Shown: positions 12,298 through 36,606, counted from the stretch's first letter. The stretch is DNA of 40,732 nucleotides from a bacterium (GCA_021158195.1 JAGGVA010000023.1:1-40732), one strand, 5' to 3'. Numbers and translations: made by a program. Notes: generated by a model from the letters alone, not told the origin.

Positions 12298-12325
12298 TTG
12301 ACAAAAATTTTAATTTGAGTAAAAT
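12298..12325 (+). promoter_or_regulatory. Sigma-70-type promoter (TTGACA-16-TAAAAT)
   Basis: TTGACA at 12298-12303, TAAAAT at 12320-12325. Confidence 0.5.
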
Positions 12326-12331
12326 AAGGAT

Positions 12332-12400
12332 AGTGGGTGCAGAATCCCGATCTGTGGTCGGCAAAAAGCCTCCTGGTATTTCCGGAGGCTTTTTGCTTTT
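12332..12400 (+). ncRNA. Candidate small RNA of about 65 nt (own promoter, internal hairpin, intrinsic terminator)
   Basis: Predicted start about 7 nt after the -10 box. 6-bp hairpin ccgatc/ggtcgg (12347-12352 / 12356-12361). Terminator gcctcctgg-tattt-ccggaggc (12368-12389) plus TTTTGCTTTTT. No ORF. Confidence 0.4.
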
Positions 12401-12404
12401 TAAA

Positions 12405-12444
12405 CCGCTGTAATAACATTGCCATGGCATTCTTATTACAGCGG
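12405..12444. repeat. 40-nt palindromic repeat, copy 1
   Basis: CCGCTGTAATAACATTGCCATGGCATTCTTATTACAGCGG. Confidence 0.9.
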
Positions 12445-12496
12445 ATTTAAGGTATAATAAAATTGATAAAAGAAAAAATTAAAAGAACTTCAAACT

Positions 12497-13072
12497 ATGA
12501 GCAAATATAAATATTATTTTAGAAAACCCAAATCAGCGATTACAAAAGACATTTTAAATTTCCTTTTTATTGCGGGAGCAGTTTATGTGGCGGCATCGTC
12601 TCCCTATTTTGTTGTGAATCTTTGGAAAAATTACAGGAAATTTAAGAGATATCCTCAGAGAAAGTTTAGTGACTCTTTTCAAAATCTTCGAAGGCAAGGT
12701 TTAATAAAAATAGAAAAGAAAAATCATCAAATTTATATTTCTCTGACAGAAAAAGGGAAGGCAAAAGCAGGGTGGATGCAAATAGACGCCCTTAAAATCA
12801 AAAGACCTAAAAGATGGGATAGAAAATGGCGAATTGTTATTTTTGATATTGCCCAGCTGAAGAAAATATATCGGGAAGCCCTAAGAGGAAAACTGAAGGA
12901 GTTAGGGTTCATTCCTCTTCAGAAAAGTGTTTGGATTTATCCCTTTGATTGCAGAGACGAAATTAACCTTTTGAAAAACTTCTTTGGGCTAAGCGACAAA
13001 GAATTGAGATTAATAATTGCCCAAGAAATAGGAGATAACAAACCCTTTTTAAAACACTTTAATCTTAAATAG
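12497..13072 (+). CDS. PaaX-like (wHTH plus Cas2/VapD-fold middle domain) putative regulator with N-terminal TM helix
   Basis: RWDRKWRIVIFDIAQLKKIYREALRGKLKELGFIPLQKSVWIYPFDC matches the PaaX-family W.G.W..v.f.iPe..R..R..L...GF..l..gvWi.P signature. wHTH-like FQNLRRQGLIKIEKKNHQIYISLTEKGK. Hydrophobic ILNFLFIAGAVYVAASSPYFVV. Confidence 0.6.
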   Translation: MSKYKYYFRKPKSAITKDILNFLFIAGAVYVAASSPYFVVNLWKNYRKFKRYPQRKFSDSFQNLRRQGLIKIEKKNHQIYISLTEKGKAKAGWMQIDALKIKRPKRWDRKWRIVIFDIAQLKKIYREALRGKLKELGFIPLQKSVWIYPFDCRDEINLLKNFFGLSDKELRLIIAQEIGDNKPFLKHFNLK

Positions 13073-13111
13073 CGCTGTAATAACATTGCCATGGCATTCT
13101 TATTACAGCGG
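13073..13111. repeat. 40-nt palindromic repeat, copy 2 (abuts the stop codon of the PaaX-like gene)
   Basis: CGCTGTAATAACATTGCCATGGCATTCTTATTACAGCGG, identical to 12406-12444. Confidence 0.9.
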
Positions 13112-13241
13112 TTTGGTTCTTTATATTTTGTTAGTTTTGTAAAATTATTAGAGCAAATTAACAATGAGTTTTTTAAATTTTTTTAAAAAAATAAAAAATG
13201 ATATTATGAATAAAAAGAATTAAATTATCCTTATATCTTAT

Positions 13242-16200
13242 ATGGATCAAATATTTCCTCCTAAAAAAAGAATCATTGATACCTCCCCCAAGAAGTTAGT
13301 TAAGATTATAGGAATCATTTTAATTGTTTGCCTTTTACTTGGTTTTGGTTATTACTTCTTTCAACAGAGGCAGAAGAGTCAAATTATCGAAGGGCGATTT
13401 GAGATTGTTCCTACTCTTTCAGACGATGCAGGCATTGATCCAGAAACTTCTTTTATTCTTTTAAGTTCGGAAGATATAGCAATAAAAAGGCTAAAGAGAA
13501 TGATCAAGTTTCAACCCTCAATAGATTTTGAGATTAGAAAAGTAAGCAAGGCAGCAAAAGGAGATTTTTTAAATCAAGTTTTGGCTGCCGGAAGCAAAGA
13601 AGATTCAAAAGTTTTTAAATTTGAGATCAAGCCCAAAAAACCATTGGAGATAAACACAATATACAAAATAGTTCTTAGTAAAGATTATGTAGAAAGGGAG
13701 TACAGTTGGGCCTATCAAGTTAAAGCTCCGTTTCAGGTTATTGCTACCCATCCGGGTGATAAAAAAACAAATGTTCCGTTAAATTCAGGAATAGAAATTA
13801 CTTTAAATAGAGAGGGTTTTGTAGATATAGAGAAATATTTCTCTATTTTGCCAAAAACAGAAGGAATAATTAAATCGGTAGGAAATAAAATAATTTTTAT
13901 CCCCCAAAAACTTTTACCAGAGACAGTTTATACAGTGACTCTTAAAAAAGGGCTAAAGGTTAAGGGCAGCAAAGATACTCTAAACAAGGATTACACTTTT
14001 CAATTTGAAACAGGAAAAGAATACTATTCGTCACAATTTCCCTATTTAAGTTTTAATAATGATTTTTTGATTTTTCCCTCACAGACATTTCCAAGGATTA
14101 CCGTTTATTGTAATGAAATAAATTCTCAAGAAATTGAAGCAGAAGTATATAAATTTTCTAGTCCAGAAGAATTTTTAGAGTCATATCAAAATAGCAGAGA
14201 TTGGTCTTTAGGGTGGACTTATTATTATCGTCGGAAAGGAGCCTTTTATAATCCAAAAGAGGAAGAAAAGATATTTACCTTTAAACCTTTTACGGGAAAA
14301 GGGTGTGATTATTCTGCTACCATAATTATTCCAAAAAAATTGGAAAAAGGATATTATCTTTTAAATTTGCCCATTAAGTCCGACTACGGAGAAGAAAGAA
14401 AGTATCAGATATGGTTTCAGATAACGAAACCAATTGTTCATTATTCAGCCGTTACTAAAGATAATGGAATTTTTTGGCTTGCTGATTTGTCAAAAAAAGA
14501 TTTTGTAAATGGAGCCACGATTACTTATATATGTGAAGGAAAAAATTTTACTCTTGGTGTTACTAACCCGCAGGGTTTTTTTCAATTTAATGTTCCCGAA
14601 CCTTGTCGAACCCAGAAAGATAAATTTTCATCAAATTTTTTCAAGATAGAAACAAAAACCTCACTGCCTCTTTTTGTGAAAGAAGAAGATAGAGGGTCTT
14701 ATTTTCCGCATTATTATTGGCAGTCCGATTCTGAGAAGAGTAAATATTGGGGCTATATTTCATCAGACCGCCATGTTTATCGCACAAACGATGTTTTGAA
14801 ATATTGGGGAGTTGTTAAAGAAAAAAACAGCGACATAAGAAATTTTAAGGTATCGGTGGGAATTTATAAGGACTGGTGGTATTCAAGAGGTGAAGCATTA
14901 ACATCGCAAGAAGTGATTGTTTCTTCTCTTAATACCATTCGGGGCGAATTGAAGATTAAGGGAATTCAACCGGGGTATTATACATTGGCTGTTGTTGCAA
15001 ACGATGAATTAGTTGATAGTGTTCCAATTCAAATCCTAAATTACACAAAGCCCACATATCAGATAGAAGTTAATGCTTCTAAAAAAGCGGTAGTCGTTGA
15101 CGAGGTTGTTAATTTTAAAGTTAAGGCGTCATTTTTTGATGGAACCCCAGTTTCTAATTTAAGGGTCAAATATCAAGTATATAATGAGGGACATTCTGAT
15201 ACAGGTTATTTAACTCTGAATGAGTTTGGAGAGGGAGTTTTTTCATACAAATTTTCTAGAAAGAGCGAATATTCGTGGGGTTGTTATTCTTTTGCTGAAA
15301 TTACTGTTTCTCCGGCTGGATCAGAAGAGGGTGAAATTTATGGTGAGGAATCGGTCTTAGTTTTTCCCTCAACTATTTATTTGCAGGCCTTTAAAGAAAA
15401 ATTAAGTAGAGGAGTTTATAAGTTAACGGCGAAAGCAAACAAGATAAATTTTGAAGGTGTTAAGGGAGAGGATTTGGGTTTTGTTTACGAAGAATACTTG
15501 GGCGAGCCGTCAGTTAATACTCTTATAAAAGCGAATATAAATAAAATAACTTACAAAAAAGTAGAGATAGGAACATACTATGATTATATTACTAAAACCT
15601 TTCGCAAAAGATACAGATTAGAGAGGGAAGAAGAACTAGTAGATTCTATACAAGGAGAAACAGATCAAAAAGGAGAATGGTCTTTCAATTTTGATACAAG
15701 TCTCTTTCCGCTGAATGAAGAAAGTTTTTACAGAATAGATTTTATAGTTTATGACAGCAAAGGAAGATATTCTAAAGAGTCAATTTATATTTGGTCTACT
15801 TACTATGATGAATTAGAGATAATAGAAGACAAACCAAGAGGGTCTCTTACTATTAACAATGAACCGTTTAGAAAGGAGTTTGGTCAAGGAGAAGACATTG
15901 TTTTAAAGCTTAAAATTTCTGGAGAGGGAGAACCTTCCAATTCTTATATTTTGTTTTACCGCTATCAAAAGAACATTACTAAAGCAGAGATTGTTCCTTC
16001 TTTAAGTTATCAAGAAAAGTTTGCCGAGGCGTTTATTCCTACAATGGCTTATAGGGCTGTTTTCTTAAGCGCCTATGGGTTTGTAGATAGCAATGAAGTA
16101 ATAGCCTCTTTTGATGAAGAAACTCGCAGGCTATCAATAAGATTAGATAAGGATAAGGAGAATTATAGGCCGGGAGAGAATGTCGATCTAAATATTGAAG

Positions 16201-18686
16201 TTAAAGACAAAAATCAAAAAGGCGTTCCCTCCGAGGTTAATGTTTCAGTAGTAGATGAAGCATTATTTCACCTACCTTTGTCTTCATATGGACTTGAAAG
16301 AGATATTTTAAAAGTGCTTTATGAAGATTTTTGGATTTCTCCTATAATCTCGTATACTTCTTACGATTCTTTTAGAGGAGGAGCAGAGATGGGAGCATGT
16401 TTCTTAAGGGGTTCCAAGGTCTTAATGGCAGACGGCACATTAAAAAATATTGAAAAAATAAAGCCAGGAGACGAGATATTAACTTGGGCAAATGGAAAGA
16501 CAAAAAGATGGGTAAAGGCAGTAGTACAGAGCGTTTCCAACCACTGGGCTAGAGAATATATAATTATTAACGATTTTCTAAAAGTAACTCCCGAGCATAA
16601 AATTTTTGTTAACGGAAGGTGGACTTATGCTGGAGATGTTAAAGTAGGAGATAAACTCTTGGGGAAGAATGGAGAAACAATTATTGTAAAGACGGTTACA
16701 AAAAAGATAGAAGATGCGCCGATGTATAACATATATGTGAGCAAATATCACACTTATTTTGTAGACGGTATTTATGTTCACAATGAAGAAAAAGGAGGTC
16801 AGGTAAGAATGAATTTTGTAGATGTGGCTTTTTATAATACTTTAAAAACCGATCAACGGGGCAAAGTTTATACTTCTTTCAAACTTCCCGATAATATTAC
16901 TTCCTGGAGAATAATTGCTCAAGCGTTTTCTCCTCAAAAATTAATGGCTGGAAGAGAAGTATCGTCGATTAATGTATCTCTTCCATTTTTTGTTGAGGCA
17001 ACAATAAATGATAGTTATTTGGTAGGAGATGTTCCGATAATAAGAATAAGGGCTTTTGGCACAGAGTTAGACCAAAATAAAGAAGTGGAGTTTAAAATAG
17101 AAAGCAAAACCCTCAACTTGAATAAAAAAATTACTGCTCCTCATAATTTCGTCTATGTCTCACTTGGACCTCTTTCAGAAGGAGAGCATCAAATTTTAAT
17201 TTCTGCCAAGCAGGGAAAATATAGCGATACAATTATAAGAAAGTTTAAAGTGGAGAAATCATATTTTAAGGTGGACAAATCTAGTTTTTACAAAGTTTCA
17301 GAAGGTCTCTCTGGCATAAAGGGCAACCAATATGGATTTACTAAACTTAAATTTATAGATTTAGGCAGGGGAAGATTTTTCTCTTCTTTACTGAACAAAA
17401 CCCACAATCAAGGAATAAGAATAGATCAAGTGTTAGGAAAGTATTTGGCACAGAAATATCTTTTTAAATACTACAACGAAGGGAAAGGCAAAGTAGAGCT
17501 TCCTAGTATAGATAATTATTACGGAGAAAACGGCGGGCTTCAACTTTTTCCATATGGCGACGAAGACCTCGAAATAACAAGCAAGGTGGTAAATCTTGTG
17601 CCAGATACAATTTACAAAGAGCAGGTGGTAGGATATCTTTATAACTCGTTAGATGACGAAAAAGCGGATATTCATAGAATTTCAAAAGCCCTTTATGGCC
17701 TTTCCGCTTTAAATGAATTGGTTTTGAATAAGATTCAAAAGATTATAAAAGACCCCCATCTTAGTTTAGAAGACAAAACATATTTGGCTCTCGGGCTGGT
17801 TAATTTTGGCGACAAAGAAACAGCAAGAAAGATTTATTATAGCGACATTAGGAATAATCTTCGGTTTCAGGGACCGGAAGCCTGGGTAGAAGAAAGAGAT
17901 TTGACAAAGAGGGTAAAATTGACAGGAATGATTGCAGTTCTTGCGGCGCAATTAGAAGAGCAGGACGCGGACAAATTAGGGGAGTATATATTAACCCATA
18001 ATCCGGAGAGAGATTTAGATATTTTAGAAGAACTTCTTTATATTAAGTCAGAGTTGCCGAAAATTTCGGCTGAAAAAGCAGAGTTTGAATATTATACCAA
18101 TAATCGCTCAGGGAAGGTTTTGTTAGAAAAAGGCAAAACTTATGAACTGAACTTATCTTATGAAGAATTAAAAACTTTGAGATTTAAAAATGTAAAGGGC
18201 GACATTGCTCTTATAAGTTTTTATCAAGAGGCTCAAGATCCCCAAAACATTAAAAAAGATCAAGAACTTGGAATTAAGAGAGAATATTTAGTTAATGGGA
18301 TACAGAAAAACACCTTTAATGAAGGAGATTTAGTTTTGGTGCGACTACATCCCTATATTTCAGACAGAGCTTTAGATGGCAACTATCAAATTGTTGATTA
18401 TCTACCAAGTGGATTGAGGCCGGTTAGTCAAATTTACAATAGAGGTCGATATCTCGGAAAATGCGATATTTTGTATTATCCGACAATGATGGAGGGAAAC
18501 ACTGTTTACTTCAAGGTTTGGAAAGGGTTTAGGTCAGATCTAATTTTTTGTAAAAACAAGACAGTTAATTATTATGCAAGGGTTGTTTCAAAGGGTAAAT
18601 TTAAGGCTAATCCGGCTGTAATTCAATCATTGAAGGATTTGGAAAGCCTTAATGTCTCTTCAGAGGATTGGATAGAGATTAAATAA
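13242..18686 (+). CDS. Membrane-anchored alpha-2-macroglobulin-family giant surface protein (no thioester motif, YfaS-like), interrupted by a Hint domain
   Basis: N-terminal TM anchor (LVKIIGIILIVCLLLGFGYYFF). SbsA-Ig-like VIATHPGDKKTNVPLNSGIEITLN. VSVVDEALFHL (bait-region-domain-like). VRMNFVDVAFYN..TDQRGKVYTSFKLPDNITSWRIIAQAF (A2M domain signature). C-terminal IVDYLPSGLRPV (receptor-domain/MG8-like). None of the 9 Cys residues is followed by xEQ. Confidence 0.8.
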   Translation: MDQIFPPKKRIIDTSPKKLVKIIGIILIVCLLLGFGYYFFQQRQKSQIIEGRFEIVPTLSDDAGIDPETSFILLSSEDIAIKRLKRMIKFQPSIDFEIRKVSKAAKGDFLNQVLAAGSKEDSKVFKFEIKPKKPLEINTIYKIVLSKDYVEREYSWAYQVKAPFQVIATHPGDKKTNVPLNSGIEITLNREGFVDIEKYFSILPKTEGIIKSVGNKIIFIPQKLLPETVYTVTLKKGLKVKGSKDTLNKDYTFQFETGKEYYSSQFPYLSFNNDFLIFPSQTFPRITVYCNEINSQEIEAEVYKFSSPEEFLESYQNSRDWSLGWTYYYRRKGAFYNPKEEEKIFTFKPFTGKGCDYSATIIIPKKLEKGYYLLNLPIKSDYGEERKYQIWFQITKPIVHYSAVTKDNGIFWLADLSKKDFVNGATITYICEGKNFTLGVTNPQGFFQFNVPEPCRTQKDKFSSNFFKIETKTSLPLFVKEEDRGSYFPHYYWQSDSEKSKYWGYISSDRHVYRTNDVLKYWGVVKEKNSDIRNFKVSVGIYKDWWYSRGEALTSQEVIVSSLNTIRGELKIKGIQPGYYTLAVVANDELVDSVPIQILNYTKPTYQIEVNASKKAVVVDEVVNFKVKASFFDGTPVSNLRVKYQVYNEGHSDTGYLTLNEFGEGVFSYKFSRKSEYSWGCYSFAEITVSPAGSEEGEIYGEESVLVFPSTIYLQAFKEKLSRGVYKLTAKANKINFEGVKGEDLGFVYEEYLGEPSVNTLIKANINKITYKKVEIGTYYDYITKTFRKRYRLEREEELVDSIQGETDQKGEWSFNFDTSLFPLNEESFYRIDFIVYDSKGRYSKESIYIWSTYYDELEIIEDKPRGSLTINNEPFRKEFGQGEDIVLKLKISGEGEPSNSYILFYRYQKNITKAEIVPSLSYQEKFAEAFIPTMAYRAVFLSAYGFVDSNEVIASFDEETRRLSIRLDKDKENYRPGENVDLNIEVKDKNQKGVPSEVNVSVVDEALFHLPLSSYGLERDILKVLYEDFWISPIISYTSYDSFRGGAEMGACFLRGSKVLMADGTLKNIEKIKPGDEILTWANGKTKRWVKAVVQSVSNHWAREYIIINDFLKVTPEHKIFVNGRWTYAGDVKVGDKLLGKNGETIIVKTVTKKIEDAPMYNIYVSKYHTYFVDGIYVHNEEKGGQVRMNFVDVAFYNTLKTDQRGKVYTSFKLPDNITSWRIIAQAFSPQKLMAGREVSSINVSLPFFVEATINDSYLVGDVPIIRIRAFGTELDQNKEVEFKIESKTLNLNKKITAPHNFVYVSLGPLSEGEHQILISAKQGKYSDTIIRKFKVEKSYFKVDKSSFYKVSEGLSGIKGNQYGFTKLKFIDLGRGRFFSSLLNKTHNQGIRIDQVLGKYLAQKYLFKYYNEGKGKVELPSIDNYYGENGGLQLFPYGDEDLEITSKVVNLVPDTIYKEQVVGYLYNSLDDEKADIHRISKALYGLSALNELVLNKIQKIIKDPHLSLEDKTYLALGLVNFGDKETARKIYYSDIRNNLRFQGPEAWVEERDLTKRVKLTGMIAVLAAQLEEQDADKLGEYILTHNPERDLDILEELLYIKSELPKISAEKAEFEYYTNNRSGKVLLEKGKTYELNLSYEELKTLRFKNVKGDIALISFYQEAQDPQNIKKDQELGIKREYLVNGIQKNTFNEGDLVLVRLHPYISDRALDGNYQIVDYLPSGLRPVSQIYNRGRYLGKCDILYYPTMMEGNTVYFKVWKGFRSDLIFCKNKTVNYYARVVSKGKFKANPAVIQSLKDLESLNVSSEDWIEIK
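16398..16784 (+). other. Hint / mini-intein-like domain (129 aa, residues 1053-1181 of the A2M-like protein) without an endonuclease
   Basis: Cys1 plus block A CFLRGSKVLMADGTLKNI, block B VTPEHKIF (TxxH), blocks F/G MYNIYVSKYHTYFVDGIYVHN. The next residue is Glu (gaa, 16785-16787). Confidence 0.8.
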
Positions 18687-18693
18687 AGAATTG

Positions 18694-20457
18694 ATGCCAA
18701 AAACTTATAAAATAATTCTCGTTATTATTATTTTGAGCATCTTTGGGTTAGTTGTTTTTTCGGTTTATGATTATTTAGATTTCTCTTTCACAAAAAGTTA
18801 TTTTTTGGATGGCCACAATAAAAAGTTTATTAGGACAAAGTTTGAAGAAATGGGAGATTATATTGAGGAATTAGCAGAGGAAAGGGAGGGAAATTTCCTA
18901 AATTCTTCGCAAGAAGATTATATTCAGGCGGGTATAGTTTCTCATCATCTTCCCACAGCAGCCCCTCTTATAACAGATTTTTATCTTCGTTTAAAATATT
19001 CTCAGGGACCCAGAGAGATTTTTTTTGTTATAGGTCCTGATCATTTTGAGAGAGGGAAAGCCGTTGTTTCTACGGCTAATTTACCGTTTTTAACACCATT
19101 TGGAAAACTTGATATAGATGAGGCAGTGATTAATGATTTATTGAAGGTAGGAGTTGCAATAGATAATGAAGCAATTCAAGATCATTCTATTGGGGTGCAG
19201 GCAATTTTTATAAAAAAATTTTTTCCTAAGGCGCGAATTGTTCCTCTTATTCTTAAGGCGAATACAAACGATGAAATTATAAAAAAGATCGCAGAAGTTA
19301 TTGCGCGTTATAGAGATAGAGCCACAGTAGTCATTAGCGTAGATTTTTCTCATTATCAACCATATGATTACGCGGAGATACTAGATGGAATAAGCGAAGA
19401 GATGATAAAAGATCTTAATTTTAATAATTTTACCCTTAGGTATGTGGATTCGCCGGCATCAATGAAACTGCTGGGATTAGTTGTTAATGATTTTGATTTA
19501 GGCCTTAGAAACATTATTAGAAGTAATTCTTACAAGTTTACGGGAGATTCTCAGAATACAACAGGTTATATTATTGCTACTTTTGGCAAAAGCAACAGCG
19601 AAGAATCATTACTTATGTTTGTGGGAGATATTATGCTTTCCCGAAGTGTAGGCTTAAAAATGAAAAGAGAAAACAATTGGAAATGGCCCTTTCTTAAAAT
19701 TGCTGATTATCTAAAACGGGCAGATATTCTTTTTGGTAATTTAGAAAACCCTATTTCTATCAGAGGAAAAAATATTGGGAGTATTTATTCTTTTCGGGCA
19801 GATCCACGGGTGGTTGAAGGTTTAAAATATGCTGGTTTTGATGTGCTCTCCTTGGCAAATAATCATATAACTGATTGGAGTATGGAGGCGATGAAAGATA
19901 CTTTTCAAATTTTGAAGGACAATGATATTAGTTATATAGGCGCAGGATACAACAGGGCAGAAGTTCATACTCCGGTAGTTAAGGTATTGAAAGATGGAAC
20001 AAAGATAGGTTTTTTAGGTTATACAAATTTAATTTCAAAATATTGGGAAGCCCAGGAAGACAGGCCAGGAGTTGCTTATCTGAGAATATCTGACATCAAA
20101 AAAGATATCGCGGAAGCAAAAAAGACAGTAGATTTGTTGGTAGTTTCTATGCATTTTGGAACAGAATATAAACCACATTCAAACGAAACCCAACAAGAAT
20201 TTGCAAGAGCAGCGATTGATGCCGGGGCAGATATTGTGGTGGGTCATCATCCTCATGTGCTTCAAGAAATAGAGAAGTACAAAGATGGTTATATTGTCTA
20301 TAGTTTGGGTAATTTTGTTTTTGATCAATTATTCTCAGACGATGTTAGGACAGGTGGAATATTGGAGGTTATTGTTAAAAATAAAAAAATCAAAAAAATA
20401 GAACTAAAGAAAACTTGGATTACCGAGAATTTTCAGGTTGAATTGATGGAGAAATGA
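18694..20457 (+). CDS. Membrane-anchored fusion protein: MEMO1/AmmeMemoRadiSam-B-like domain plus CapA (PGA_cap) metallophosphoesterase-like domain
   Basis: TM ILVIIILSIFGLVVFSVY. MEMO-like GIVSHHLPTAAPLI, VIGPDHFERG, DHSIGVQAIFIKKFFP, VISVDFSHY. CapA-like FVGDIMLSR, GNLENPIS, SLANNHITDW, VVSMHFGTEY, VVGHHPHVLQEIE, YSLGNFVFDQ. The ORF track start is a TTG at 18691; the ATG is at 18694. Confidence 0.75.
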   Translation: MPKTYKIILVIIILSIFGLVVFSVYDYLDFSFTKSYFLDGHNKKFIRTKFEEMGDYIEELAEEREGNFLNSSQEDYIQAGIVSHHLPTAAPLITDFYLRLKYSQGPREIFFVIGPDHFERGKAVVSTANLPFLTPFGKLDIDEAVINDLLKVGVAIDNEAIQDHSIGVQAIFIKKFFPKARIVPLILKANTNDEIIKKIAEVIARYRDRATVVISVDFSHYQPYDYAEILDGISEEMIKDLNFNNFTLRYVDSPASMKLLGLVVNDFDLGLRNIIRSNSYKFTGDSQNTTGYIIATFGKSNSEESLLMFVGDIMLSRSVGLKMKRENNWKWPFLKIADYLKRADILFGNLENPISIRGKNIGSIYSFRADPRVVEGLKYAGFDVLSLANNHITDWSMEAMKDTFQILKDNDISYIGAGYNRAEVHTPVVKVLKDGTKIGFLGYTNLISKYWEAQEDRPGVAYLRISDIKKDIAEAKKTVDLLVVSMHFGTEYKPHSNETQQEFARAAIDAGADIVVGHHPHVLQEIEKYKDGYIVYSLGNFVFDQLFSDDVRTGGILEVIVKNKKIKKIELKKTWITENFQVELMEK

Positions 20458-20483
20458 TAAAAATTAAAAAATCCTCACTTATA

Positions 20484-20523
20484 TCCGCTGTAATAACATT
20501 GCCATGGCAATGTTATTACAGCG
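20484..20523. repeat. 40-nt palindromic repeat, copy 3 (perfect palindrome)
   Basis: CCGCTGTAATAACATTGCCATGGCAATGTTATTACAGCGG, followed by tttggttttt. Confidence 0.9.
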
Positions 20524-20579
20524 GTTTGGTTTTTCCTCTATGAATTTTTCTAAAGAGCGGGAGATATGTATCCAATATG

Positions 20580-20607
20580 TTGCATTCAAGAGAAGATAAT
20601 GTATAAT
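20580..20607 (+). promoter_or_regulatory. Sigma-70-type promoter of the murB-hpf unit (TTGCAT-16-TATAAT)
   Basis: TTGCAT at 20580-20585, TATAAT at 20602-20607. Confidence 0.5.
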
Positions 20608-20613
20608 AAAATC

Positions 20614-20669
20614 GAGCCTGGGTGTATGCACCCACAGAAGACCTAGATCGGGGTCAACTGCCCAGGCTC
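20614..20669 (+). promoter_or_regulatory. GC-rich structured 5' leader element upstream of murB (class unknown)
   Basis: Closing stem gagcctggg/cccaggctc (20614-20622 / 20661-20669). Internal hairpins gggtg-tatg-caccc and gacc..ggtc. The GGG at 20620-20622 can pair with either of two CCC runs. The strong SD aggagg is 25 nt downstream. Confidence 0.4.
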
Positions 20670-20699
20670 TTTAAATAAAAATAAAAACGCAGAGGAGGA

Positions 20700-25598: not shown

Positions 25599-25610
25599 CT
25601 TCCCCGAAAA

Positions 25611-25687
25611 TTGGGACTAGGTAATTGGGGCTAGGTTCAAACTGGGGCTAGGTTCAAACTGGGGCTAGGTTCAACCTGGCCCAAATT
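25611..25687. repeat. Tandem 17-nt repeat array (TGGGGCTAGGTTCAAAC x3 plus degenerate flanking units) ending in a near-palindrome
   Basis: Units at 25626-25642, 25643-25659 and 25660-25676. Degenerate unit at 25612-25625. The terminal sequence tggggctaggttcaacctggcccaaatt is 25660-25687. Confidence 0.85.
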
Positions 25688-25732
25688 AGTTAAATTTGAT
25701 TTTTTGCAAACTCTTTGTTATTATAGAAATAT

Positions 25733-25951
25733 ATGTCAAAAGTAATTTCAATTCCAAAAGAGTTATCCAAAAAAGGAGACCTAGTTATTATTCCTCGAGC
25801 AGAATACGAGGAGCTTTTGGATTTGAAAAAAATCGTTCGCTTAATGAAATTGACTCCTTCCGAAAAAAAAGCGCTTAGACTCGGAAGAAAAGAAATAAAA
25901 GAGGGTAAATATATAACCTTAAAACAACTCAAAAGTGAACTGGGAAGTTAG
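25733..25951 (+). CDS. Type II antitoxin (Phd/RelB-like by architecture)
   Basis: 72 aa, DLVIIPRAEYEELLDLKK. Overlaps the downstream RelE/ParE-like ORF by 17 nt. Confidence 0.65.
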   Translation: MSKVISIPKELSKKGDLVIIPRAEYEELLDLKKIVRLMKLTPSEKKALRLGRKEIKEGKYITLKQLKSELGS

Positions 25952-26204
25952 AATTCCCAAAAGGGTTTTAAAAGATATAAAACGAATTCCTAAAAAAGAC
26001 GCGAAGCGTCTTTTAGCTATTTTGGAAGAGATTTCAAGGAACCCTTATTGGGGAGATATTAAAAAAATAAAAGGCGAAGAGAATGTTTGGCGAAGAAGAG
26101 AGGGCGGTTATAGAATTCTATATGAAATTCACTCCTCGAGAAAGATAATTGATATCTTTAGAATTACTAGAAGATCTACAACCACTTATCGCAAAAGAAA
26201 GTAA
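25935..26204 (+). CDS. Type II toxin, RelE/ParE superfamily
   Basis: 89 aa, GTG start. IPKKDAKRLLAILEEISRNPYWGDIKKIKGEENVWRRREGGYRILYEI..IIDIFRITRR matches the RelE/ParE plasmid-stabilisation pattern (W.R.G.YRI.Y.I). Confidence 0.75.
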   Translation: MNWEVRIPKRVLKDIKRIPKKDAKRLLAILEEISRNPYWGDIKKIKGEENVWRRREGGYRILYEIHSSRKIIDIFRITRRSTTTYRKRK

Positions 26205-26255
26205 TCTAATTAGAGAAGAGTAGAACTGGATCTAAAAATTCTATGGGCGTGATCG

Positions 26256-26285
26256 TTGGGCTAGGTTGAACCTAGCCCAAATTTA
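26256..26285. repeat. 23-nt palindrome plus AAATT tail, a direct copy of the motif at 25660-25687
   Basis: ttgggctaggttgaacctagcccaaattta. The arms are tgggctaggtt / aacctagccca. Confidence 0.8.
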
Positions 26286-26286
26286 T

Positions 26287-26314
26287 TTGACAAATGAGAT
26301 AATCTTTATATAAT
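26287..26314 (+). promoter_or_regulatory. Sigma-70-type promoter of secDF (TTGACA-16-TATAAT), ATG 6 nt after the -10 box (leaderless candidate)
   Basis: TTGACA at 26287-26292, TATAAT at 26309-26314, ATG at 26321, no SD. Confidence 0.55.
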
Positions 26315-26320
26315 AAAGCA

Positions 26321-30981: not shown

Positions 30982-32547
30982 ATGGAAATAGAGTTCTCAA
31001 AAGAGATAACTTATATAGGCGAAACTAACTTTAGGAATATAAGAAAGAAGTTTGGTATTAAACTTGATGATAGACGCAGGCATATTTATGTAATTGGTAA
31101 AACAGGTATGGGTAAGACCGCTCTTTTAACCAATATGGCGGTTCAAGATATCAATACAGATAGAGGCATTGCCTTTATAGATCCTCATGGAGAGGCAGCC
31201 GAAGAACTTTTGGATTATATTCCAAAAGAAAGAATAAAAGATGTCATCTATTTTAATCCTGCTGATCTGGAATTTCCTATAGGATTTAACATTATGGAGA
31301 TTCACAATCCCGAGGAAAGGCACTTAATAGCAGCAGGCCTGATGGGAGTTTTTAAAAAAATATGGCCAGATGTTTGGTCTGCCCGAATGGAATATATTTT
31401 GAACAACTGCATTCTTGCCTTATTGGAATATCCCGGCTCAACTCTTTTGGGTATAAACCGAATGCTTGCTGATCCTGACTACAGAAAAAAAGTTGTGAAT
31501 AAGGTGAAAGATCCGGTAGTAAAGGCGTTTTGGCTTCAGGAGTTCGCAAGATATACCCAAAGGTATGAAGTAGAAGCAACAGCAGCAATTCAGAATAAAG
31601 TTGGTCAGTTTGTTTCAAACCCTTTGATAAGAAATATTATTGGTCAGGAGAAATCCACTATTGATATAAGAAAGATAATGGATCAAGGTAAGATATTTAT
31701 TGTTAATCTTTCCAAAGGAAAAATAGGAGAGGCAAACTCAACACTTTTGGGGGCTTTAATTATTACCAAACTTTACCTTGAGGCAATGTCAAGAGTTGAT
31801 ATACCGGAAGAGAAAAGAAAAGATTTCTTTTTGTATGTTGATGAATTTCAGAATTTTGCCACAGAATCTTTTGCTAATATATTATCTGAGGCACGTAAAT
31901 ATCGGCTCTCTCTGGTTTTAGCCCATCAGTATATTGCCCAGATGGAGGAGAAAGTAAGAGATGCTGTTTTTGGCAATGTGGGAACTCTCATTTCTTTTCG
32001 CGTTGGAGCAGAGGACGCCAAGTTTTTAGAGAAAGAATTTTCTCCTTATTTTACCCAAGAAGATTTTGTCAATTTACCAAAGTATAATATTTATATAAAA
32101 TTAATGATAGATGGAGTGGCGGCAAAACCATTTTCTGCCCAAACGCTTCCTCCTTTTCCAAAGCCAGAAACTAATTTCCGTCAAGAAATTATTCAAACTT
32201 CTCAGAGGAACTATGGAGTTGCTAGGAATTTGGTAGAGGAAAGAATAGCAGAGTGGTCTTTGCCGGTCAAAGAAGAAATTAAAAGGAAGCCAAAGGATCG
32301 AGCAAAGAGAGAATCCGTTAAACCCATTTCTTTAAAAGAAGCGCTCAAGAACCCACCCATTTCCTTTTTTTCAAAAAGAAAAAATATACCCCCAGAGAAA
32401 AAGAAGAAAGCAGAGCCAAAAATTGATGAATTAAGAGAAATATTAGATAAGGCAATTCAGGAGAAAGAGAATAAGCAAAAAAAGAAAGAGGAAGATATAA
32501 AAGAGGACGGAATAATAAAACCTGGAGATAAAATTTCTTTTAAGTAA
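30982..32547 (+). CDS. FtsK/HerA-superfamily ATPase, TraD/VirD4 (type IV coupling protein)-like, no TM segment, Lys/Glu-rich C-terminal tail
   Basis: Walker A VIGKTGMGKTALL, IDPHGE, Walker B FFLYVDEFQNFAT, LVLAHQYIAQM (T4CP-like HQ motif). The tail contains KRKPKDRAKRE...KKKKAEPK...KQKKKEE. Confidence 0.7.
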   Translation: MEIEFSKEITYIGETNFRNIRKKFGIKLDDRRRHIYVIGKTGMGKTALLTNMAVQDINTDRGIAFIDPHGEAAEELLDYIPKERIKDVIYFNPADLEFPIGFNIMEIHNPEERHLIAAGLMGVFKKIWPDVWSARMEYILNNCILALLEYPGSTLLGINRMLADPDYRKKVVNKVKDPVVKAFWLQEFARYTQRYEVEATAAIQNKVGQFVSNPLIRNIIGQEKSTIDIRKIMDQGKIFIVNLSKGKIGEANSTLLGALIITKLYLEAMSRVDIPEEKRKDFFLYVDEFQNFATESFANILSEARKYRLSLVLAHQYIAQMEEKVRDAVFGNVGTLISFRVGAEDAKFLEKEFSPYFTQEDFVNLPKYNIYIKLMIDGVAAKPFSAQTLPPFPKPETNFRQEIIQTSQRNYGVARNLVEERIAEWSLPVKEEIKRKPKDRAKRESVKPISLKEALKNPPISFFSKRKNIPPEKKKKAEPKIDELREILDKAIQEKENKQKKKEEDIKEDGIIKPGDKISFK

Positions 32548-33748: not shown

Positions 33749-34921
33749 GTGGAAAAGTTGTTGAAGGGAACAAAAAAATTATCTCAAATTATTACTAATG
33801 CCTCTCAAAATGATGAGAGATTTATTCTTTATGGAGATGCGGATTTAGATGGAATTGCTTCTGTAATTATTTTTAAGGAAATGCTGGAGATATTGAATCA
33901 AGATTACAAGACAAAAAATGAACCAATAGTTTATTTTCCTGACAGAGAAAAGGATGGTTATGGTATTACCTCTACTGCTATTAAAAAATTAAAAAAGTTT
34001 TCTCCGGCAGTTTTTGTAGCCCTTGATTGTGGGATAACGAATTTTGATGAGGTAAAAGAACTAAAAAAACAAGGTTTTCTGGTCGTTATCATAGATCATC
34101 ACAAAATAATAGGAAAATTACCTAAAGCAGAGGTGATTGTTGATCCAAAACAAAAAGGAGAAAAGTATCCTTTCAAAAAATTTAGCGCCGCAGGTGTTAC
34201 GTATAAAATCTCAAAATATATTTTGGAGAGTAACTATTTAGAGTGGTCTCCGGACTCATTTTTAGAACTTGTCGCTTTAGCCACTTTGGCAGACCAAATG
34301 CCCCAAGAAGAAGAAAATAAAGAACTTATTCAGCAGGGATTAATGGCGTTTAAATACACCAAGCGGACTGGACTTTTGGCTTTAAAAGAAGTTACCGGTT
34401 ACAAGGAAGATTTGATGTCAGATTTATATCAGAAAATTATTGCCCCACTTAACAGTTCTGACAGAATAAACGATTTAACAGAAAGTTATATTTTACTTAC
34501 TACTAAGTCAAAGAAACAAGCACAAGCAATTGCTAAAGATCTGTATCGCAAAAGTATCGAAAAGAAAGAAAAAATTCAAAAAATGTTTGAGGAGGTGGAG
34601 CGAAGAATCAGCGGGAACGAAGTTATTATATATGAGGGCGACAAGAATTGGTTAACAGTAATGATGGGAATAGTTGCTTCAAAAATATGCCAGAAATATA
34701 AAAAACCTACTTTTCTTTTTAAATATACAAAAGATGAAGCAATATGTTCGGCAAGATTGCCAAAAGGATTTGACGGAGTAAAAGCAATGCAGCACTGCCA
34801 AGATCTATTAATTTCTTTTGGAGGCCATGCTCCTGCCTGTGGATGCAGATTAAAAAAGGAAAATTTAGAAAAATTTAAAAGTTGTCTTGTAAATTATTTT
34901 TTAAAAAAACAAAATGAATAA
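33749..34921 (+). CDS. DHH/DHHA1 phosphoesterase (RecJ-like or NrnA-like nuclease)
   Basis: YGDADLDGIAS, ALDCG, VIIDHHK, FGGHAPACG (DHHA1). GTG start. At 390 aa it is shorter than canonical RecJ. Confidence 0.7.
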   Translation: MEKLLKGTKKLSQIITNASQNDERFILYGDADLDGIASVIIFKEMLEILNQDYKTKNEPIVYFPDREKDGYGITSTAIKKLKKFSPAVFVALDCGITNFDEVKELKKQGFLVVIIDHHKIIGKLPKAEVIVDPKQKGEKYPFKKFSAAGVTYKISKYILESNYLEWSPDSFLELVALATLADQMPQEEENKELIQQGLMAFKYTKRTGLLALKEVTGYKEDLMSDLYQKIIAPLNSSDRINDLTESYILLTTKSKKQAQAIAKDLYRKSIEKKEKIQKMFEEVERRISGNEVIIYEGDKNWLTVMMGIVASKICQKYKKPTFLFKYTKDEAICSARLPKGFDGVKAMQHCQDLLISFGGHAPACGCRLKKENLEKFKSCLVNYFLKKQNE

Positions 34922-35324
34922 ATTTATTATTTACACAGATGGAGCCTCAAAAGGAAACCCCGGACCTGCAGCAGTGGGAGTGATAATTTGCGATAAAAAT
35001 GGCAAAGTTTTGAAAGAATATAGCAAGGAGATAGGGGAAGCGACGAACAATGAAGCAGAATATCAGGCAGTTATCCTCGCGCTCAAAAAGATAAAACTTC
35101 TTTATGGAAAGAAAAGGGCAAAAGAGAGCGAACTTGAGGTAAGATCAGATTCTCAACTTCTAGTATCTCAACTCAATGGAAAATATAAAATTTTAGATGA
35201 GAAGATTCAAAAATTATTTATTGAAGTTTGGAATCTTCAGACAGAATTTAAAAAAGTTGTCTTTAAACTAATTCCCAGAGGCGAAAACAAACTTGCAGAT
35301 AGGGCCGCTAATAGAGCTTTTTAA
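34914..35324 (+). CDS. rnhA: Ribonuclease HI
   Basis: IYTDGASKGNPGPAAVGVII, TNNEAEYQAVILAL, RSDSQLLVSQLNGKYK, NKLADRAAN. 8-nt overlap with the upstream gene. Confidence 0.85.
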   Translation: MNKFIIYTDGASKGNPGPAAVGVIICDKNGKVLKEYSKEIGEATNNEAEYQAVILALKKIKLLYGKKRAKESELEVRSDSQLLVSQLNGKYKILDEKIQKLFIEVWNLQTEFKKVVFKLIPRGENKLADRAANRAF

Positions 35325-35373: not shown

Positions 35374-35413
35374 CCGCTGTAATAACATTGCCATGGCAAT
35401 CTTATTACAGCGG
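35374..35413. repeat. 40-nt palindromic repeat, copy 4
   Basis: CCGCTGTAATAACATTGCCATGGCAATCTTATTACAGCGG, preceded by ccaccaaa (roughly the reverse complement of the tttggtt flank of copies 2 and 3). Confidence 0.9.
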
Positions 35414-35485: not shown

Positions 35486-36103
35486 ATGGAAATGGAGGAG
35501 TATGATTTAGAGAAATTTCAGAGACAGGTATTGGCTAAATGGACAGAGGGATTAGAACAGGAAGAAATTATTATAGTGAAAAATCATGATCTTGAAATAG
35601 CACAAGAAATAGTAGGTAATCAGAGATGGGACGATATTTTAAACAAGATAGAAGAGGGATCACCCACATTTTTTGATGTTATGGTTAGCGAAGTTACCGA
35701 GGCGGCACGAATTATCAGTACCGGAGCGCCGAACAATTGCTGTGCCAATATTATTAGCCAAAGAGCAACGGATGATGTAGGTGTTATTCTTGCTTTACTG
35801 TTTCTTCCGGTTTATCTTGCTAATAATTATAAATGGCCTACAATCGGAACTGGTTCTCAACCATTGGATTATTACAAGACAAGGATAGAGAAAGCATACA
35901 AGTGGAGATTCGGAGTTCTTATGAAACACTTTGAAGAAGAAACAGTTGAGGCTTTGGGTAAGAAATATTTTCGGATGATAAAAGATCTTATATATAATTT
36001 GAAGTTGCACCCTATTCTAATAGAAGTTGTTGCTAAGATGGCGCTTCTTTTCTTTCATTTTGTAAAAGTTAGAGCCGATACAGAACTTTTTATGTCAAGA
36101 TAA
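35486..36103 (+). CDS. Hypothetical protein (no recognisable family)
   Basis: 205-aa ORF with a strong SD (aaaaggagggATGG) and a strong downstream terminator. Confidence 0.55.
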   Translation: MEMEEYDLEKFQRQVLAKWTEGLEQEEIIIVKNHDLEIAQEIVGNQRWDDILNKIEEGSPTFFDVMVSEVTEAARIISTGAPNNCCANIISQRATDDVGVILALLFLPVYLANNYKWPTIGTGSQPLDYYKTRIEKAYKWRFGVLMKHFEEETVEALGKKYFRMIKDLIYNLKLHPILIEVVAKMALLFFHFVKVRADTELFMSR

Positions 36104-36152: not shown

Positions 36153-36560
36153 AAAAGCCCAAGCAGACAATAGGCCGAATTCTGTACTCTTCATTTGAGA
36201 ATTTCTCAAATGAAGAGTGGCAATCATTTATCTGAGCCCTCGATTACTCTCGGGCTTATGCGGGCTACCTTTCCCCGCAGAAAACAAGTTTTCTGTGGGG
36301 TTTGCCCTTGCACCCGGGCAGGGATTTAGCCGTTTCACTCCCGGAATTTCTCCCGGGACTCACCCAATTTGGGTGTTCCTCGCCTCTCGGCTTGGAACGT
36401 CTCTGTTCGCACCCCTACGGTTACCCGCGACGGGTGTTACCCGCTGCCCTTTTACCCCGCACAAAACAAAGTTTCTGCGAGGTGAGTGTTCGGACCTTCC
36501 TCTGCCAATTTTGCCTAACGGCAAAATTGGCAGCGATTGCCTTGCCTACTTGGGCTTTTC
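36153..36560 (-). ncRNA. rnpB: RNase P RNA, bacterial type A
   Basis: The reverse complement reads AAGCCCAAGUAGGCAAGG...GCUGCCAAUUUUGCC-GUUA-GGCAAAAUUGGCAG-AGGAAGGUCCGAACAC (CR-I GAGGAAAGUCCG-like) ... ACAGAAUUCGGCCUAU (CR-V ACAGAA.CCGGCUUA-like) ... UGUCUGCUUGGGCUU (closing P1). A GC-rich island in AT-rich DNA. Confidence 0.9.
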
Positions 36561-36606
36561 CTTAAAGTTTATAACAAAAATTGGTGTTTGTCAAATTTAG
36601 ATTATC

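What the first reader, a model, noticed from the sequence alone, without database searches (positions are those of the whole stretch)
12405..13111. PaaX-like regulator gene bracketed by two identical copies of a 40-nt palindrome (cassette-like unit)
Seen: copy 1 (12405-12444) and copy 2 (13073-13111) share the same sequence variant (...GCCATGGCATTCTTATTACAGCGG). Copies 3 and 4 elsewhere carry different variants. The two copies enclose a single 191-aa gene. Copy 2 begins at the base after the stop codon. Copy 1 sits 8 nt upstream of a TATAAT box (12453-12458), so any -35 element falls inside the palindrome. The protein has a wHTH, a PaaX-type Cas2/VapD-fold domain and an N-terminal TM helix, which is odd for a transcription factor. 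Hypothesis (a): the palindrome is the operator of this regulator, giving autoregulation and control of the other loci that carry it. Hypothesis (b): the gene is a cassette mobilised or duplicated together with a hairpin element.
Basis: partly seen in the sequence, partly recalled or inferred. Interest (0 to 1): 0.65.

Follow-up and report, generated by a model that had tools for sequence, protein, structure and literature searches.

The report
Mini-PaaX regulator flanked by its operators
A small, highly conserved DNA-binding protein of ultra-small (CPR) bacteria has its gene enclosed by two copies of a 40-bp palindrome that is most likely its own binding site, which gives a testable handle on gene regulation in organisms that cannot be grown alone.

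Summary
Four copies of a 40-nt palindrome lie at 12405-12444, 13072-13111, 20485-20524 and 35374-35413, where none is expected by chance. Copies 1 and 2 enclose a 191-aa gene with a PaaX-type Cas2-like domain.

Hypothesis (a), operator and autoregulation, is well supported by comparison:
- The gene is bracketed by two palindromes in all 15 lineages examined (proteins 62-96% identical).
- The centre GCCATGGC is nearly invariant. The arms are lineage-specific and change symmetrically.
- The arm sequence tracks residues 62-63 of the predicted recognition helix. One blind prediction was met.
- The upstream copy overlaps the core promoter.
- E. coli PaaX represses its own promoter through a 39-bp inverted-repeat operator.

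Hypothesis (b), a mobile cassette, is rejected for this gene. The gene is vertically inherited, with conserved order paaX-like, murB, hpf, secA. The window has no integrase or transposase.

The exact identity of copies 1 and 2 is strain-specific. The neighbouring 7.4-kb A2M/PGA_cap segment between copies 2 and 3 is absent in a relative, which keeps a single palindrome there.

Binding itself, the role of the conserved downstream copy and the N-terminal "TM helix" are untested. I rate this a new variant of a known kind, of moderate interest.

The parts
12405..12444 (.). Palindrome copy 1, the proposed upstream operator. It has two internal mismatches (ATTC variant). Its right arm supplies the -35 region of the regulator's promoter.
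   Evidence: DNA hairpin -12.9 kcal/mol, z -5.8. An orthologous copy is present in L002, L005, L009, L017 and L040.
12435..12463 (+). Promoter-like site of the regulator gene: ATTACA, 17 nt, TAAAAT. An overlapping TATAAT lies at 12453-12458. The -35 hexamer is inside the palindrome.
   Evidence: Consensus scan, (9 of 12 matches); sequence read. No transcript data are available.
12497..13072 (+). Gene for a 191-aa mini-PaaX protein. It has a basic N-terminus with a hydrophobic segment (residues 19-43), a recognition helix plus wing (about 58-95) and a Cas2-like PaaX_M domain (about 105-187). It has no PaaX C-terminal domain.
   Evidence: The family has 1880 representatives of 50%-identity clusters at E<=1e-10.
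13072..13111 (.). Palindrome copy 2, the proposed downstream operator. It starts at the last base of the stop codon and is identical to copy 1 over 39 nt in this strain.
   Evidence: A downstream copy within -4 to +47 nt of the stop occurs in 14 of 15 lineages (130 nt in L037).
13112..20484 (+). Variable 7.4-kb segment between copies 2 and 3. It holds an alpha-2-macroglobulin-like gene with a HINT domain (13242-18686) and a Memo + PGA_cap gene (18691-20457). Together with one palindrome it forms a 7413-bp unit that is absent in relative L005.
   Evidence: Pfam. L005 has paaX-like, one palindrome, then murB. paaX-like and murB are adjacent in L035, L041, L043 and L046.
20485..20524 (.). Palindrome copy 3, a perfect 40-mer followed by TTTGGTTTTT. 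It lies 55 nt upstream of the murB promoter-like site and leader. It is the only copy that also fits an intrinsic-terminator rule.
   Evidence: DNA hairpin -20.5 kcal/mol, z -9.5. Orthologous copies occur in L011 and L023.
35374..35413 (.). Palindrome copy 4 (one mismatch), between an RNase H gene (34914-35324) and a 205-aa gene with no family match (35486-36103).
   Evidence: Orthologous copies occur in L007, L019, L027 and L031.

Best explanation
The 191-aa protein is a minimal PaaX-type regulator. It has a recognition helix plus wing and a Cas2-like domain that in PaaX is the dimerisation module. It lacks the ligand-binding C-terminal domain.

Inferred mechanism:
1. A dimer binds the 36-46-bp palindrome.
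2. The recognition helix (residues about 60-66) reads the lineage-specific arms, which in this lineage are CTGTAATAA and TTATTACAG, 22 bp apart.
3. The nearly invariant centre, TTGCCATGGCAA, is either contacted by invariant parts of the protein or serves as a -35 element.
4. The upstream copy overlaps the -35 and spacer region of the regulator's own promoter, so binding there would repress it by excluding RNA polymerase. E. coli PaaX does this at its own promoter Px.
5. The second copy at the stop codon is a second operator. It most likely forms a loop with the first, or acts as a roadblock that separates the regulator's transcription unit from the murB operon downstream.

In the window's lineage the same site has spread to a small regulon: upstream of the A2M-like gene, upstream of murB, between RNase H and the 205-aa gene, after topA, between glmM and rpsF, and before a GH1 gene. 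Because the copies are 40-bp repeats they also act as substrates for recombination. That accounts for the homogenised copies 1 and 2 and for the 7.4-kb palindrome-to-palindrome indel.

Shown here: the sequence anatomy, its conservation, the co-variation and the fold similarity. Inferred: binding, repression, looping or roadblock, and regulon membership.
For: 1. Association. All 15 lineages examined have two palindromes bracketing the gene: window, L040, L037, L024, L025, L035, L038 and L041-L048, with proteins 62-96% identical. In L035 and L041-L043, the two flanking copies are the only such GCCATGGC-centred palindromes within 10 kb on either side.
2. Symmetry under selection. 84% of cells are paired against 66% in shuffles and 29-54% in slid controls. 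17 of 20 pairs show changes on both sides, and 0 of 500 shuffles reach this. G.U pairs are not enriched: 14 of 74 non-Watson-Crick cells, against about 17% expected. This points to a DNA-level rather than an RNA-level constraint.
3. Specificity co-variation between residues 62-63 and the arms:
   - N63: arms C[TC]GTAA[TA]A in 7 lineages.
   - R63: arms CG[TC]ATTAAT in L041, L042 and L044.
   - C62-R63: arms ACCTTAYTT.
   - K63: arms ATACGCCATAA.
   - Y63: arms TCTAGTTAT.
   Outside the helix, the window protein is closer to the R-type proteins (72-74% identical) than to other N-type proteins (62-69%). A blind prediction for P0119 (R-type) was met.
4. Promoter overlap. The centre hexamer, TTGCCA or similar, lies 16-18 nt upstream of a -10 hexamer with at least 5 of 6 matches in 8 lineages. 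In the window the -35 ATTACA lies in the right arm.
5. Protein. Foldseek finds PaaX 8a39 (E=9.5e-4), Rv0674, then Cas2 structures. PaaX_M scores 5e-19. The protein is very basic, 43 K+R against 16 D+E.
6. Precedent. E. coli PaaX binds TGATTC-N27-GAATCA, a 39-bp span, and represses its own promoter by steric hindrance (PMC9493321).
7. Extra copies sit at orthologous intergenic sites in several related MAGs while their flanks diverge.
Against: - No binding or expression data exist, and no RNA-seq run holds this sequence.
- The co-variation rests on 15 lineages and roughly 4-5 independent changes on a poorly resolved tree.
- The invariant centre does not fit simple arm-only recognition.
- Symmetric co-variation is also what a hairpin or cruciform would show.
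- The downstream copy has no obvious promoter to regulate in most lineages. The extra copies sit at varied distances from promoters.
- The N-terminal half of the winged-helix domain is not confidently modelled, and Pfam's PaaX N-terminal model does not match.
- If residues 19-43 form a membrane helix, the topology of a DNA-binding domain that follows it needs explaining.
Confidence: 0.7

Rival explanations
1. The palindromes are structural hairpins that act as RNA or as extruded DNA. They would be terminators, 3'-end stabilisers or insulators of the transcription unit, and the regulator would not recognise them. Their link with the gene would reflect the needs of a tightly packed, co-directional genome.
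For: - The hairpins are strongly stable (z -4.5 to -9.5).
- Dyad symmetry is kept through changes on both sides.
- Copy 3 fits a hairpin plus T-run rule.
- The downstream copy always sits just after the stop codon.
Against: - Only 1 of 4 window copies passes the terminator rule, and most downstream copies in other lineages lack a T-run.
- The upstream copy lies upstream of the -10 box, so the gene's own promoter does not transcribe it.
- Ordinary terminators are not conserved in sequence between sites or between species, yet here the centre is invariant and the arms are shared by all copies in a genome.
- G.U pairs are not enriched.
- The arms track a protein residue.
Confidence: 0.12
2. The protein acts on the hairpin form of the element through its Cas2/VapD-like domain, for example by binding or cutting the 3' hairpin of its own mRNA or a DNA hairpin. 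Autoregulation would then be post-transcriptional or structure-specific, not classical operator binding.
For: - The Cas2-like fold is confirmed.
- F116-D117 at the end of strand 1 is invariant in 54 homologues. From my own knowledge, unverified here, this is the position of the catalytic Asp in Cas2.
- The protein is very basic.
- The whole element, not only two half-sites, is palindromic.
Against: - In PaaX this domain is the dimerisation module (PMC9493321).
- The upstream copy sits at the promoter and is probably not in the mRNA.
- There is no G.U signal.
- Co-variation with the winged-helix residue points to duplex DNA read-out.
Confidence: 0.1
3. The palindrome is a mobile or recombination element (REP/MITE-like or attC-like), and the regulator gene is a cassette moved with it.
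For: - The 7413-bp unit between copies 2 and 3 is absent in L005, where a single hybrid palindrome remains.
- One Logan contig in run X2 joins 12405 to 13073 and skips the gene.
- Copies 1 and 2 are homogenised in this strain.
Against: - The gene family is vertically inherited, and the order paaX-like, murB, hpf, secA is conserved across lineages that are 65-72% identical.
- The palindromes diverge in place along with the protein.
- The window has no integrase, transposase or RAYT gene.
- Copy number is low: 4 in 40 kb, and 1-4 exact-pattern hits per related MAG.
- No relatives were found in viral contigs.
- The X2 joint runs through a 39-nt exact repeat in a k=31 assembly, and in X1 and X3 contigs simply break at the repeats.
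- The indel is explained by ordinary homologous recombination between 40-bp repeats.
Confidence: 0.05

Closest known systems
E. coli / Pseudomonas PaaX, repressor of phenylacetate catabolism (PDB 8a39; TIGR02277)
   Same: - Winged-helix recognition helix and wing followed by a Cas2-like central domain. PaaX is the best structural match, with PaaX_M at 5e-19.
- The operator is a long inverted repeat of about 39-40 bp, and PaaX represses its own promoter by blocking RNA polymerase (PMC9493321).
   Different: - It lacks the C-terminal domain that PaaX uses to bind its ligand, being 191 aa against about 305-316 aa.
- It scores only 33.5 bits against a TIGR02277 cut-off of 264.55.
- The window has no paa genes.
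- The N-terminus is different: an invariant KYKYYF.KP motif and a hydrophobic segment.
- The operator sequence is unrelated and has an added invariant centre, GCCATGGC.
- Two operators bracket the gene.
Two-operator looping repressors (LacI O1/O2, GalR OE/OI, DeoR); own knowledge
   Same: A palindromic operator at the promoter plus a second identical operator several hundred bp downstream. Here the centres are 627-802 bp apart.
   Different: - Here the second operator lies beyond the end of the regulator's own gene, so the pair encloses the whole gene.
- Oligomerisation beyond a dimer is unknown.
- Looping is only inferred.
Cas2 / VapD
   Same: The ferredoxin-like fold of residues about 105-187 (Foldseek probabilities 0.7-0.99), a faint TIGR01573 match, and an Asp at the end of strand 1.
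   Different: No cas1, no CRISPR array and no toxin-antitoxin partner lie next to the gene. The domain is fused to a DNA-binding module, as in PaaX.
Integron gene cassettes (attC) and REP/RAYT elements
   Same: A gene bounded by imperfect palindromes, and intergenic palindromic repeats.
   Different: There is no integrase or RAYT gene and no attC core sites. The gene position and the palindromes are conserved and co-diverge over deep phylogenetic distances. Copy number is low.

Membership tests
PaaX family regulator (TIGR02277 / Pfam PaaX + PaaX_M + PaaX_C) | Central Cas2-like domain (PaaX_M) | tested here: met
   PF20803 E=5e-19, 68.6 bits against a cut-off of 24. The top Foldseek hit is 8a39.
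PaaX family regulator (TIGR02277 / Pfam PaaX + PaaX_M + PaaX_C) | [quoted passage not shown] | tested here: inconclusive
   - The recognition helix and wing are modelled at pLDDT about 80 (residues 58-95).
- There is a weak DUF6293_C winged-helix match and weak AspA matches.
- Helices 1-2 are not modelled confidently, and the Pfam PaaX N-terminal model does not match.
PaaX family regulator (TIGR02277 / Pfam PaaX + PaaX_M + PaaX_C) | C-terminal helical (ligand-responsive) domain and a full-length match to the equivalog model | tested here: not met
   The protein ends at residue 191. TIGR02277 scores 33.5 bits against a cut-off of 264.55 and covers model positions 42-139 of 279.
PaaX family regulator (TIGR02277 / Pfam PaaX + PaaX_M + PaaX_C) | Genomic link with phenylacetate (paa) catabolic genes | tested here: not met
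   The neighbours are polysaccharide synthesis, A2M-like, PGA_cap, murB, hpf, secA and secDF genes.
PaaX family regulator (TIGR02277 / Pfam PaaX + PaaX_M + PaaX_C) | Binds a long inverted-repeat operator at its own promoter and represses it | not testable with these tools
   The anatomy fits: a 40-bp palindrome overlaps the -35 region. Binding and repression need experiments.
Cas2 (CRISPR adaptation) | Encoded next to cas1 and a CRISPR array | tested here: not met
   None of the window ORFs scanned has a Cas family match. The repeat search of the window shows no CRISPR-like array.
Integron gene cassette | attC site with RYYYAAC / GTTRRRY core sites, a nearby intI integrase, and variable cassette content at a fixed platform | tested here: not met
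   - The window has no integrase.
- Reading the sequence shows no RYYYAAC core in the arms.
- The gene is fixed in conserved synteny.
REP / MITE-type repeated palindromes | High copy number, presence or absence unrelated to gene orthology, and an associated RAYT or transposase | tested here: not met
   There are 4 copies in 40 kb and few per related MAG. The copies sit at orthologous sites across MAGs. The window has no transposase.
Intrinsic (Rho-independent) terminator | G+C-rich hairpin followed directly by a T-run, downstream of a gene | tested here: not met
   Only copy 3 passes. Copies 1, 2 and 4 do not.

The most novel reading that the evidence does not exclude
A mini-PaaX family found across much of the Parcubacteria and related CPR bacteria forms a self-contained regulatory module in which two operators enclose the regulator's own gene. 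The module sits next to the cell-wall gene murB. It has a readable recognition code, in which residue 62/63 of the helix matches the arm sequence, so regulons in uncultivated bacteria could be predicted from sequence alone. The protein may also be tethered to the membrane by its N-terminal hydrophobic segment, which would couple the state of the envelope to transcription.
Probability: 0.3. Interest if true: 0.7.

Novelty: new variant of a known kind. Interest (0 to 1): 0.55.

Why it matters
- CPR/Patescibacteria make up a large share of bacterial diversity, and I know of almost no characterised transcription factors in them.
- This family is large: 1880 representatives of 50%-identity clusters at E<=1e-10. 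Within the close set it is 62-72% identical, and it sits at a conserved position beside murB, hpf and secA.
- A predicted operator with a residue-to-base correspondence can be tested directly with a 191-aa protein and a 40-mer.
- If binding is confirmed, regulons could be read from metagenomes.
- An arrangement in which two operators enclose the regulator gene, conserved across deep divergence, has not to my knowledge been described for PaaX-type or other regulators. It may show how transcription units are insulated in very compact genomes.
- I found no paper on this family in the searchable library.

Tried and rejected
- **Rfam.** At gathering thresholds the window yields only RNase P RNA and a tRNA. 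Permissive searches around copies 1 and 3 gave only sub-threshold generic hairpin hits. The palindrome is not a known RNA family.
- **RNA-seq.** No run holds the gene, so transcript ends could not be mapped.
- **Viral contigs.** No relatives of the protein were found.
- **PDB sequence search with the Cas2-like domain alone.** Nothing useful came back, so the equivalence of D117 to the Cas2 catalytic Asp is not verified.
- **Cassette relocation.** I tested whether the A2M and PGA_cap genes correspond to the large genes upstream of the regulator in other lineages, which would imply the regulator unit had moved. There was no similarity.
- **Assembly contigs for an empty site or inversion.** One ambiguous gene-less contig appeared in run X2, no strand-switch joints were seen, and contigs mostly break at the repeats.
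- **RNAduplex on the sRNA/leader pair.** The result was not clean enough to use.
- **Terminator reading.** Rejected as the general explanation.
- **An earlier idea dropped.** I first thought only the outer arms were conserved and the centre was free. That came from the L037 comparison and was overturned once more lineages showed the centre to be the most conserved part.

Full report
**1. Observation**

The window holds four copies of a 40-nt palindrome with consensus CCGCTGTAATAACATTGCCATGGCAATGTTATTACAGCGG. They lie at 12405-12444, 13072-13111, 20485-20524 and 35374-35413. A half-site pattern matches 8 times (4 sites, both strands) against 0.00 in shuffles. The 9-mer CTGTAATAA occurs only inside these four sites, 8 matches against 0.48 expected.

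Copy 3 is a perfect palindrome and copy 4 has one mismatch. Copies 1 and 2 share the two-mismatch ATTC variant and are identical over 39 nt. They enclose a single ORF, 12497-13072. Copy 2 starts at the stop codon. Copy 1 ends 8 nt before TATAAT (12453-12458).

**2. The protein**

- Pfam gives PaaX_M, the Cas2-like central domain of PaaX, at E=5e-19, plus a weak winged-helix match.
- NCBIfam gives a partial, far sub-threshold PaaX match (33.5 bits against 264.55) and a faint Cas2 match.
- An AlphaFold model built on 54 homologues is confident (pLDDT 70-89) for residues 58-191. It shows a helix at 60-66, a beta-hairpin wing at 70-83, a helix at 85-94, and then a beta-alpha-beta-beta-alpha-beta type domain. 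Residues 1-57 fall below pLDDT 50.
- Foldseek puts E. coli PaaX (8a39) first and Rv0674 second, followed by many Cas2 and VapD structures.

The protein therefore has a PaaX-type recognition helix and wing plus the Cas2-like module, without the PaaX C-terminal domain. I call it a mini-PaaX.

The reported TM helix is a nearly uncharged segment at residues 19-43. The best 19-aa Kyte-Doolittle mean is 1.0-1.9 across the family, and both flanks are strongly basic at +5 and +8. It could be a membrane anchor or the buried helices 1-2 of the winged-helix domain. I could not decide between these.

**3. The gene is not a cassette**

The family is large. There are more than 1800 hits in the 90% clusters, of which the 120 listed are about 190 aa and 63-99% identical. 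There are 1880 representatives of 50%-identity clusters at E<=1e-10. Source names place the homologues in Parcubacteria, Paceibacterales, Kaiserbacteria and Nealsonbacteria.

In L035, L041, L043 and L046 the gene order is mini-PaaX, murB, hpf, (polyamine genes), secA, secDF. The window has the same order apart from two extra genes after the regulator. The window is ordinary chromosome: polysaccharide synthesis genes, secA, secDF, pgk, murJ, lepA and RNase P RNA. It has no integrase or transposase. No relatives occur in viral contigs.

**4. The bracket is conserved and the palindrome evolves in place**

I examined 15 lineages: the window, L040, L037, L024, L025, L035, L038 and L041-L048. In every one the gene is flanked by two copies of a palindrome.

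- The upstream copy lies 2-125 nt before the start codon. In L047 the annotated start lies inside the palindrome and is probably wrong.
- The downstream copy lies -4 to +47 nt from the stop codon. In L037 it is 130 nt away, behind a tandem repeat.
- The centres are 627-802 bp apart.

The element has three parts:
- an almost invariant centre, GCCATGGC (GCGATCGC or ACGATCGT in L037);
- 3-4 poorly symmetric positions;
- 8-12-bp arms that differ between lineages but are the same in all copies within one genome.

Across 19 distinct copies, 84% of cells are paired against 66% in shuffles and 29-54% with slid partners. 17 of 20 pairs show changes on both sides, and 0 of 500 shuffles reach the observed values. 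G.U-type cells make up 14 of 74 non-Watson-Crick cells, about the 17% expected by chance. The symmetry therefore looks like a DNA-level constraint, not an RNA-folding one.

**5. The arms track the recognition helix**

Residues 62-63 lie on the modelled helix that precedes the wing. The correspondence is:

| Residues 62-63 | Lineages | Arms |
|---|---|---|
| N63 | window, L040, L037, L024, L025, L035, L045 | C[TC]GTAA[TA]A |
| A63 | L038 | CCGTAAGA |
| R63 | L041, L042, L044 | CG[TC]ATTAAT |
| C62-R63 | L046 | ACCTTAYTT |
| K63 | L047 | ATACGCCATAA |
| Y63 | L043 | TCTAGTTAT |

Outside the helix and wing, the window protein is 72-74% identical to the R-type proteins of L041 and L042 but only 62-69% identical to other N-type proteins. 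N-type proteins do not form one group in a neighbour-joining tree. I then predicted that P0119, which is R-type, would carry CG[TC]ATTAAT-like arms. Its three palindromes read CGTATTAA[CT]...GTTAA[TC][GA]CG.

Two caveats apply. The sample is 15 lineages with perhaps 4-5 independent changes, and the tree is star-like.

**6. Promoter overlap and precedent**

In 8 lineages the centre hexamer, TTGCCA or similar (5 of 6 matches to TTGACA), lies 16-18 nt upstream of a -10 hexamer with at least 5 of 6 matches. In the window lineage the palindrome sits further upstream, and the consensus scan places the -35 (ATTACA, 12435-12440) in its right arm, 17 nt before TAAAAT. In both cases a protein bound to the palindrome would cover the -35 region.

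E. coli PaaX binds TGATTC-N27-GAATCA, which spans 39 bp, and represses its own promoter by excluding RNA polymerase (PMC9493321). The parallel in operator size and in regulatory logic is close.

**7. The other copies**

In the more distant lineages with 10-kb flanks (L035, L041, L042, L043), only the two flanking copies occur within 10 kb on either side. L024 and L047 carry a third copy nearby, and L038 and L048 carry a second upstream copy.

In the window's lineage the same palindrome also occurs at these sites:
- upstream of murB (copy 3; also L011 and L023);
- between RNase H and a 205-aa gene (copy 4; also L007, L019, L027 and L031);
- after topA, near tRNA-Leu (L001, L003, L004, L006, L008, L016, L018, L028, L030);
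- between a glmM-like gene and rpsF-ssb (L015, L020, L022);
- before a GH1 gene (L026).

These sites were found. They are shared by several MAGs although their flanks have diverged. Loose ends of assembly contigs reveal at least three more flanks. This looks like a small regulon rather than a proliferating repeat. Only copy 3 fits a hairpin plus T-run terminator rule.

**8. Recombination at the repeats**

In L002, L009, L040 and L005, copy 2 carries AATG and the left arm of copy 1 is degenerate. Only in the window (and in L017, which covers copy 1 only) do the two copies have the same sequence.

L005 (MAG AUK220) has the mini-PaaX gene, a single palindrome, and then the murB leader. Its left flank matches the left flank of copy 2 and its right flank matches the right flank of copy 3. 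The 7413-bp unit holding the A2M-like and Memo/PGA_cap genes is thus a palindrome-to-palindrome indel. The outgroup gene order shows that adjacency of the regulator and murB is ancestral. Either insertion followed by loss, or recombination between the repeats, would explain it. A mis-join in the MAG assembly cannot be ruled out.

One Logan contig in run X2 joins 12405 to 13073 and so lacks the gene. Because it runs through a 39-nt exact repeat in a k=31 assembly, I treat it as unresolved.

**9. Verdict**

The most likely reading (about 0.7) is an autoregulated mini-PaaX whose operators bracket its own gene and mark a few other promoters or intergenic sites. Still open are the function of the conserved downstream operator (looping, or a roadblock that insulates the murB operon), the role of the invariant centre, and the nature of the N-terminus.

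The rivals are less likely for the reasons given under each: pure structural hairpins (0.12), hairpin-directed action through the Cas2-like domain (0.10), and a mobile cassette (0.05).

The system works like PaaX at its own promoter Px, but it is not a member of the PaaX equivalog family. It has no C-terminal domain, no paa gene context and a sub-threshold score. I found no literature on this CPR family. I rate it a new variant of a known kind, with interest 0.55.

Noticed in passing
window 12298-12396 (+) and 20580-20670 (+): - A small transcription unit lies just upstream of copy 1. It has the promoter-like site TTGACA, 16 nt, TAAAAT (11 of 12 matches), then about 65 nt ending in a hairpin plus T-run.
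- A structured leader lies after a TTGCAT-17-TATAAT site upstream of murB.
- Both are conserved in L035, L041 and L046, and partly in L043.
- Two segments of the small RNA are complementary to two segments of the murB leader, and they co-vary between lineages. Window: GTGGGTGCA / TGCACCCAC and CCGATCT / AGATCGG. L035: TAGTGAGTG / CACTCACTA and CTAAGTC / GACTTAG. L041 and L046: GTGAGTGC / GCACTCAC.
- Neither element is in Rfam.
- This may be a trans-acting sRNA and its target leader, flanking the regulator module.
   Followed up: partly
window 25599-26320: - A toxin-antitoxin-like pair of small ORFs (25733-25951 and 25935-26204) lies between the DUF1614 gene and secD.
- It is flanked by GGGCTAGGTT-type hairpin repeats: three tandem 17-nt units at 25628-25687 and an inverted copy at 26258-26283.
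- The whole ~720-bp stretch is missing in relative L023, where DUF1614 and secD are 42 nt apart.
- The ORFs were not scanned against any family library.
   Followed up: partly
window 13242-18686: The alpha-2-macroglobulin-like protein (1814 aa) carries a HINT / intein-like domain at residues about 1052-1181, between its A2M bait region and the A2M domain. Compared with L002 and L011, the window copy has about 210 extra residues (350-560).
   Followed up: no
window 12405 -> 13073 (run X2); contigs of X1 and X3 at 12406-13102: One Logan contig (927 nt, depth 6.3) joins the upstream flank of copy 1 to the downstream flank of copy 2 and skips the regulator gene. In other runs the contigs break exactly at the palindromes, giving 697-nt palindrome-to-palindrome contigs. 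It could be a real deletion or a path error through the 39-nt repeat.
   Followed up: partly
L037 9700-9910 and 10577-10700: In this relative the regulator gene is also flanked by tandem repeats. A 16-nt unit (TAGCAGTATATAGTAA) upstream runs into an assembly gap. About eight copies of a 16-nt unit (TAATGTTAGTGAGTCT) lie between the stop codon and the downstream palindrome.
   Followed up: no
window 36156-36552 (-): RNase P RNA (class A, 115 bits) lies on the minus strand. The listed ORFs 36217-36600 and 36302-36565 overlap it and are probably not genes.
   Followed up: no
window 30982-32547 (+): A protein resembling a type IV secretion coupling protein (TrwB / TraG-D) sits among housekeeping genes, between a 438-aa gene with no family match and pgk.
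   Followed up: no
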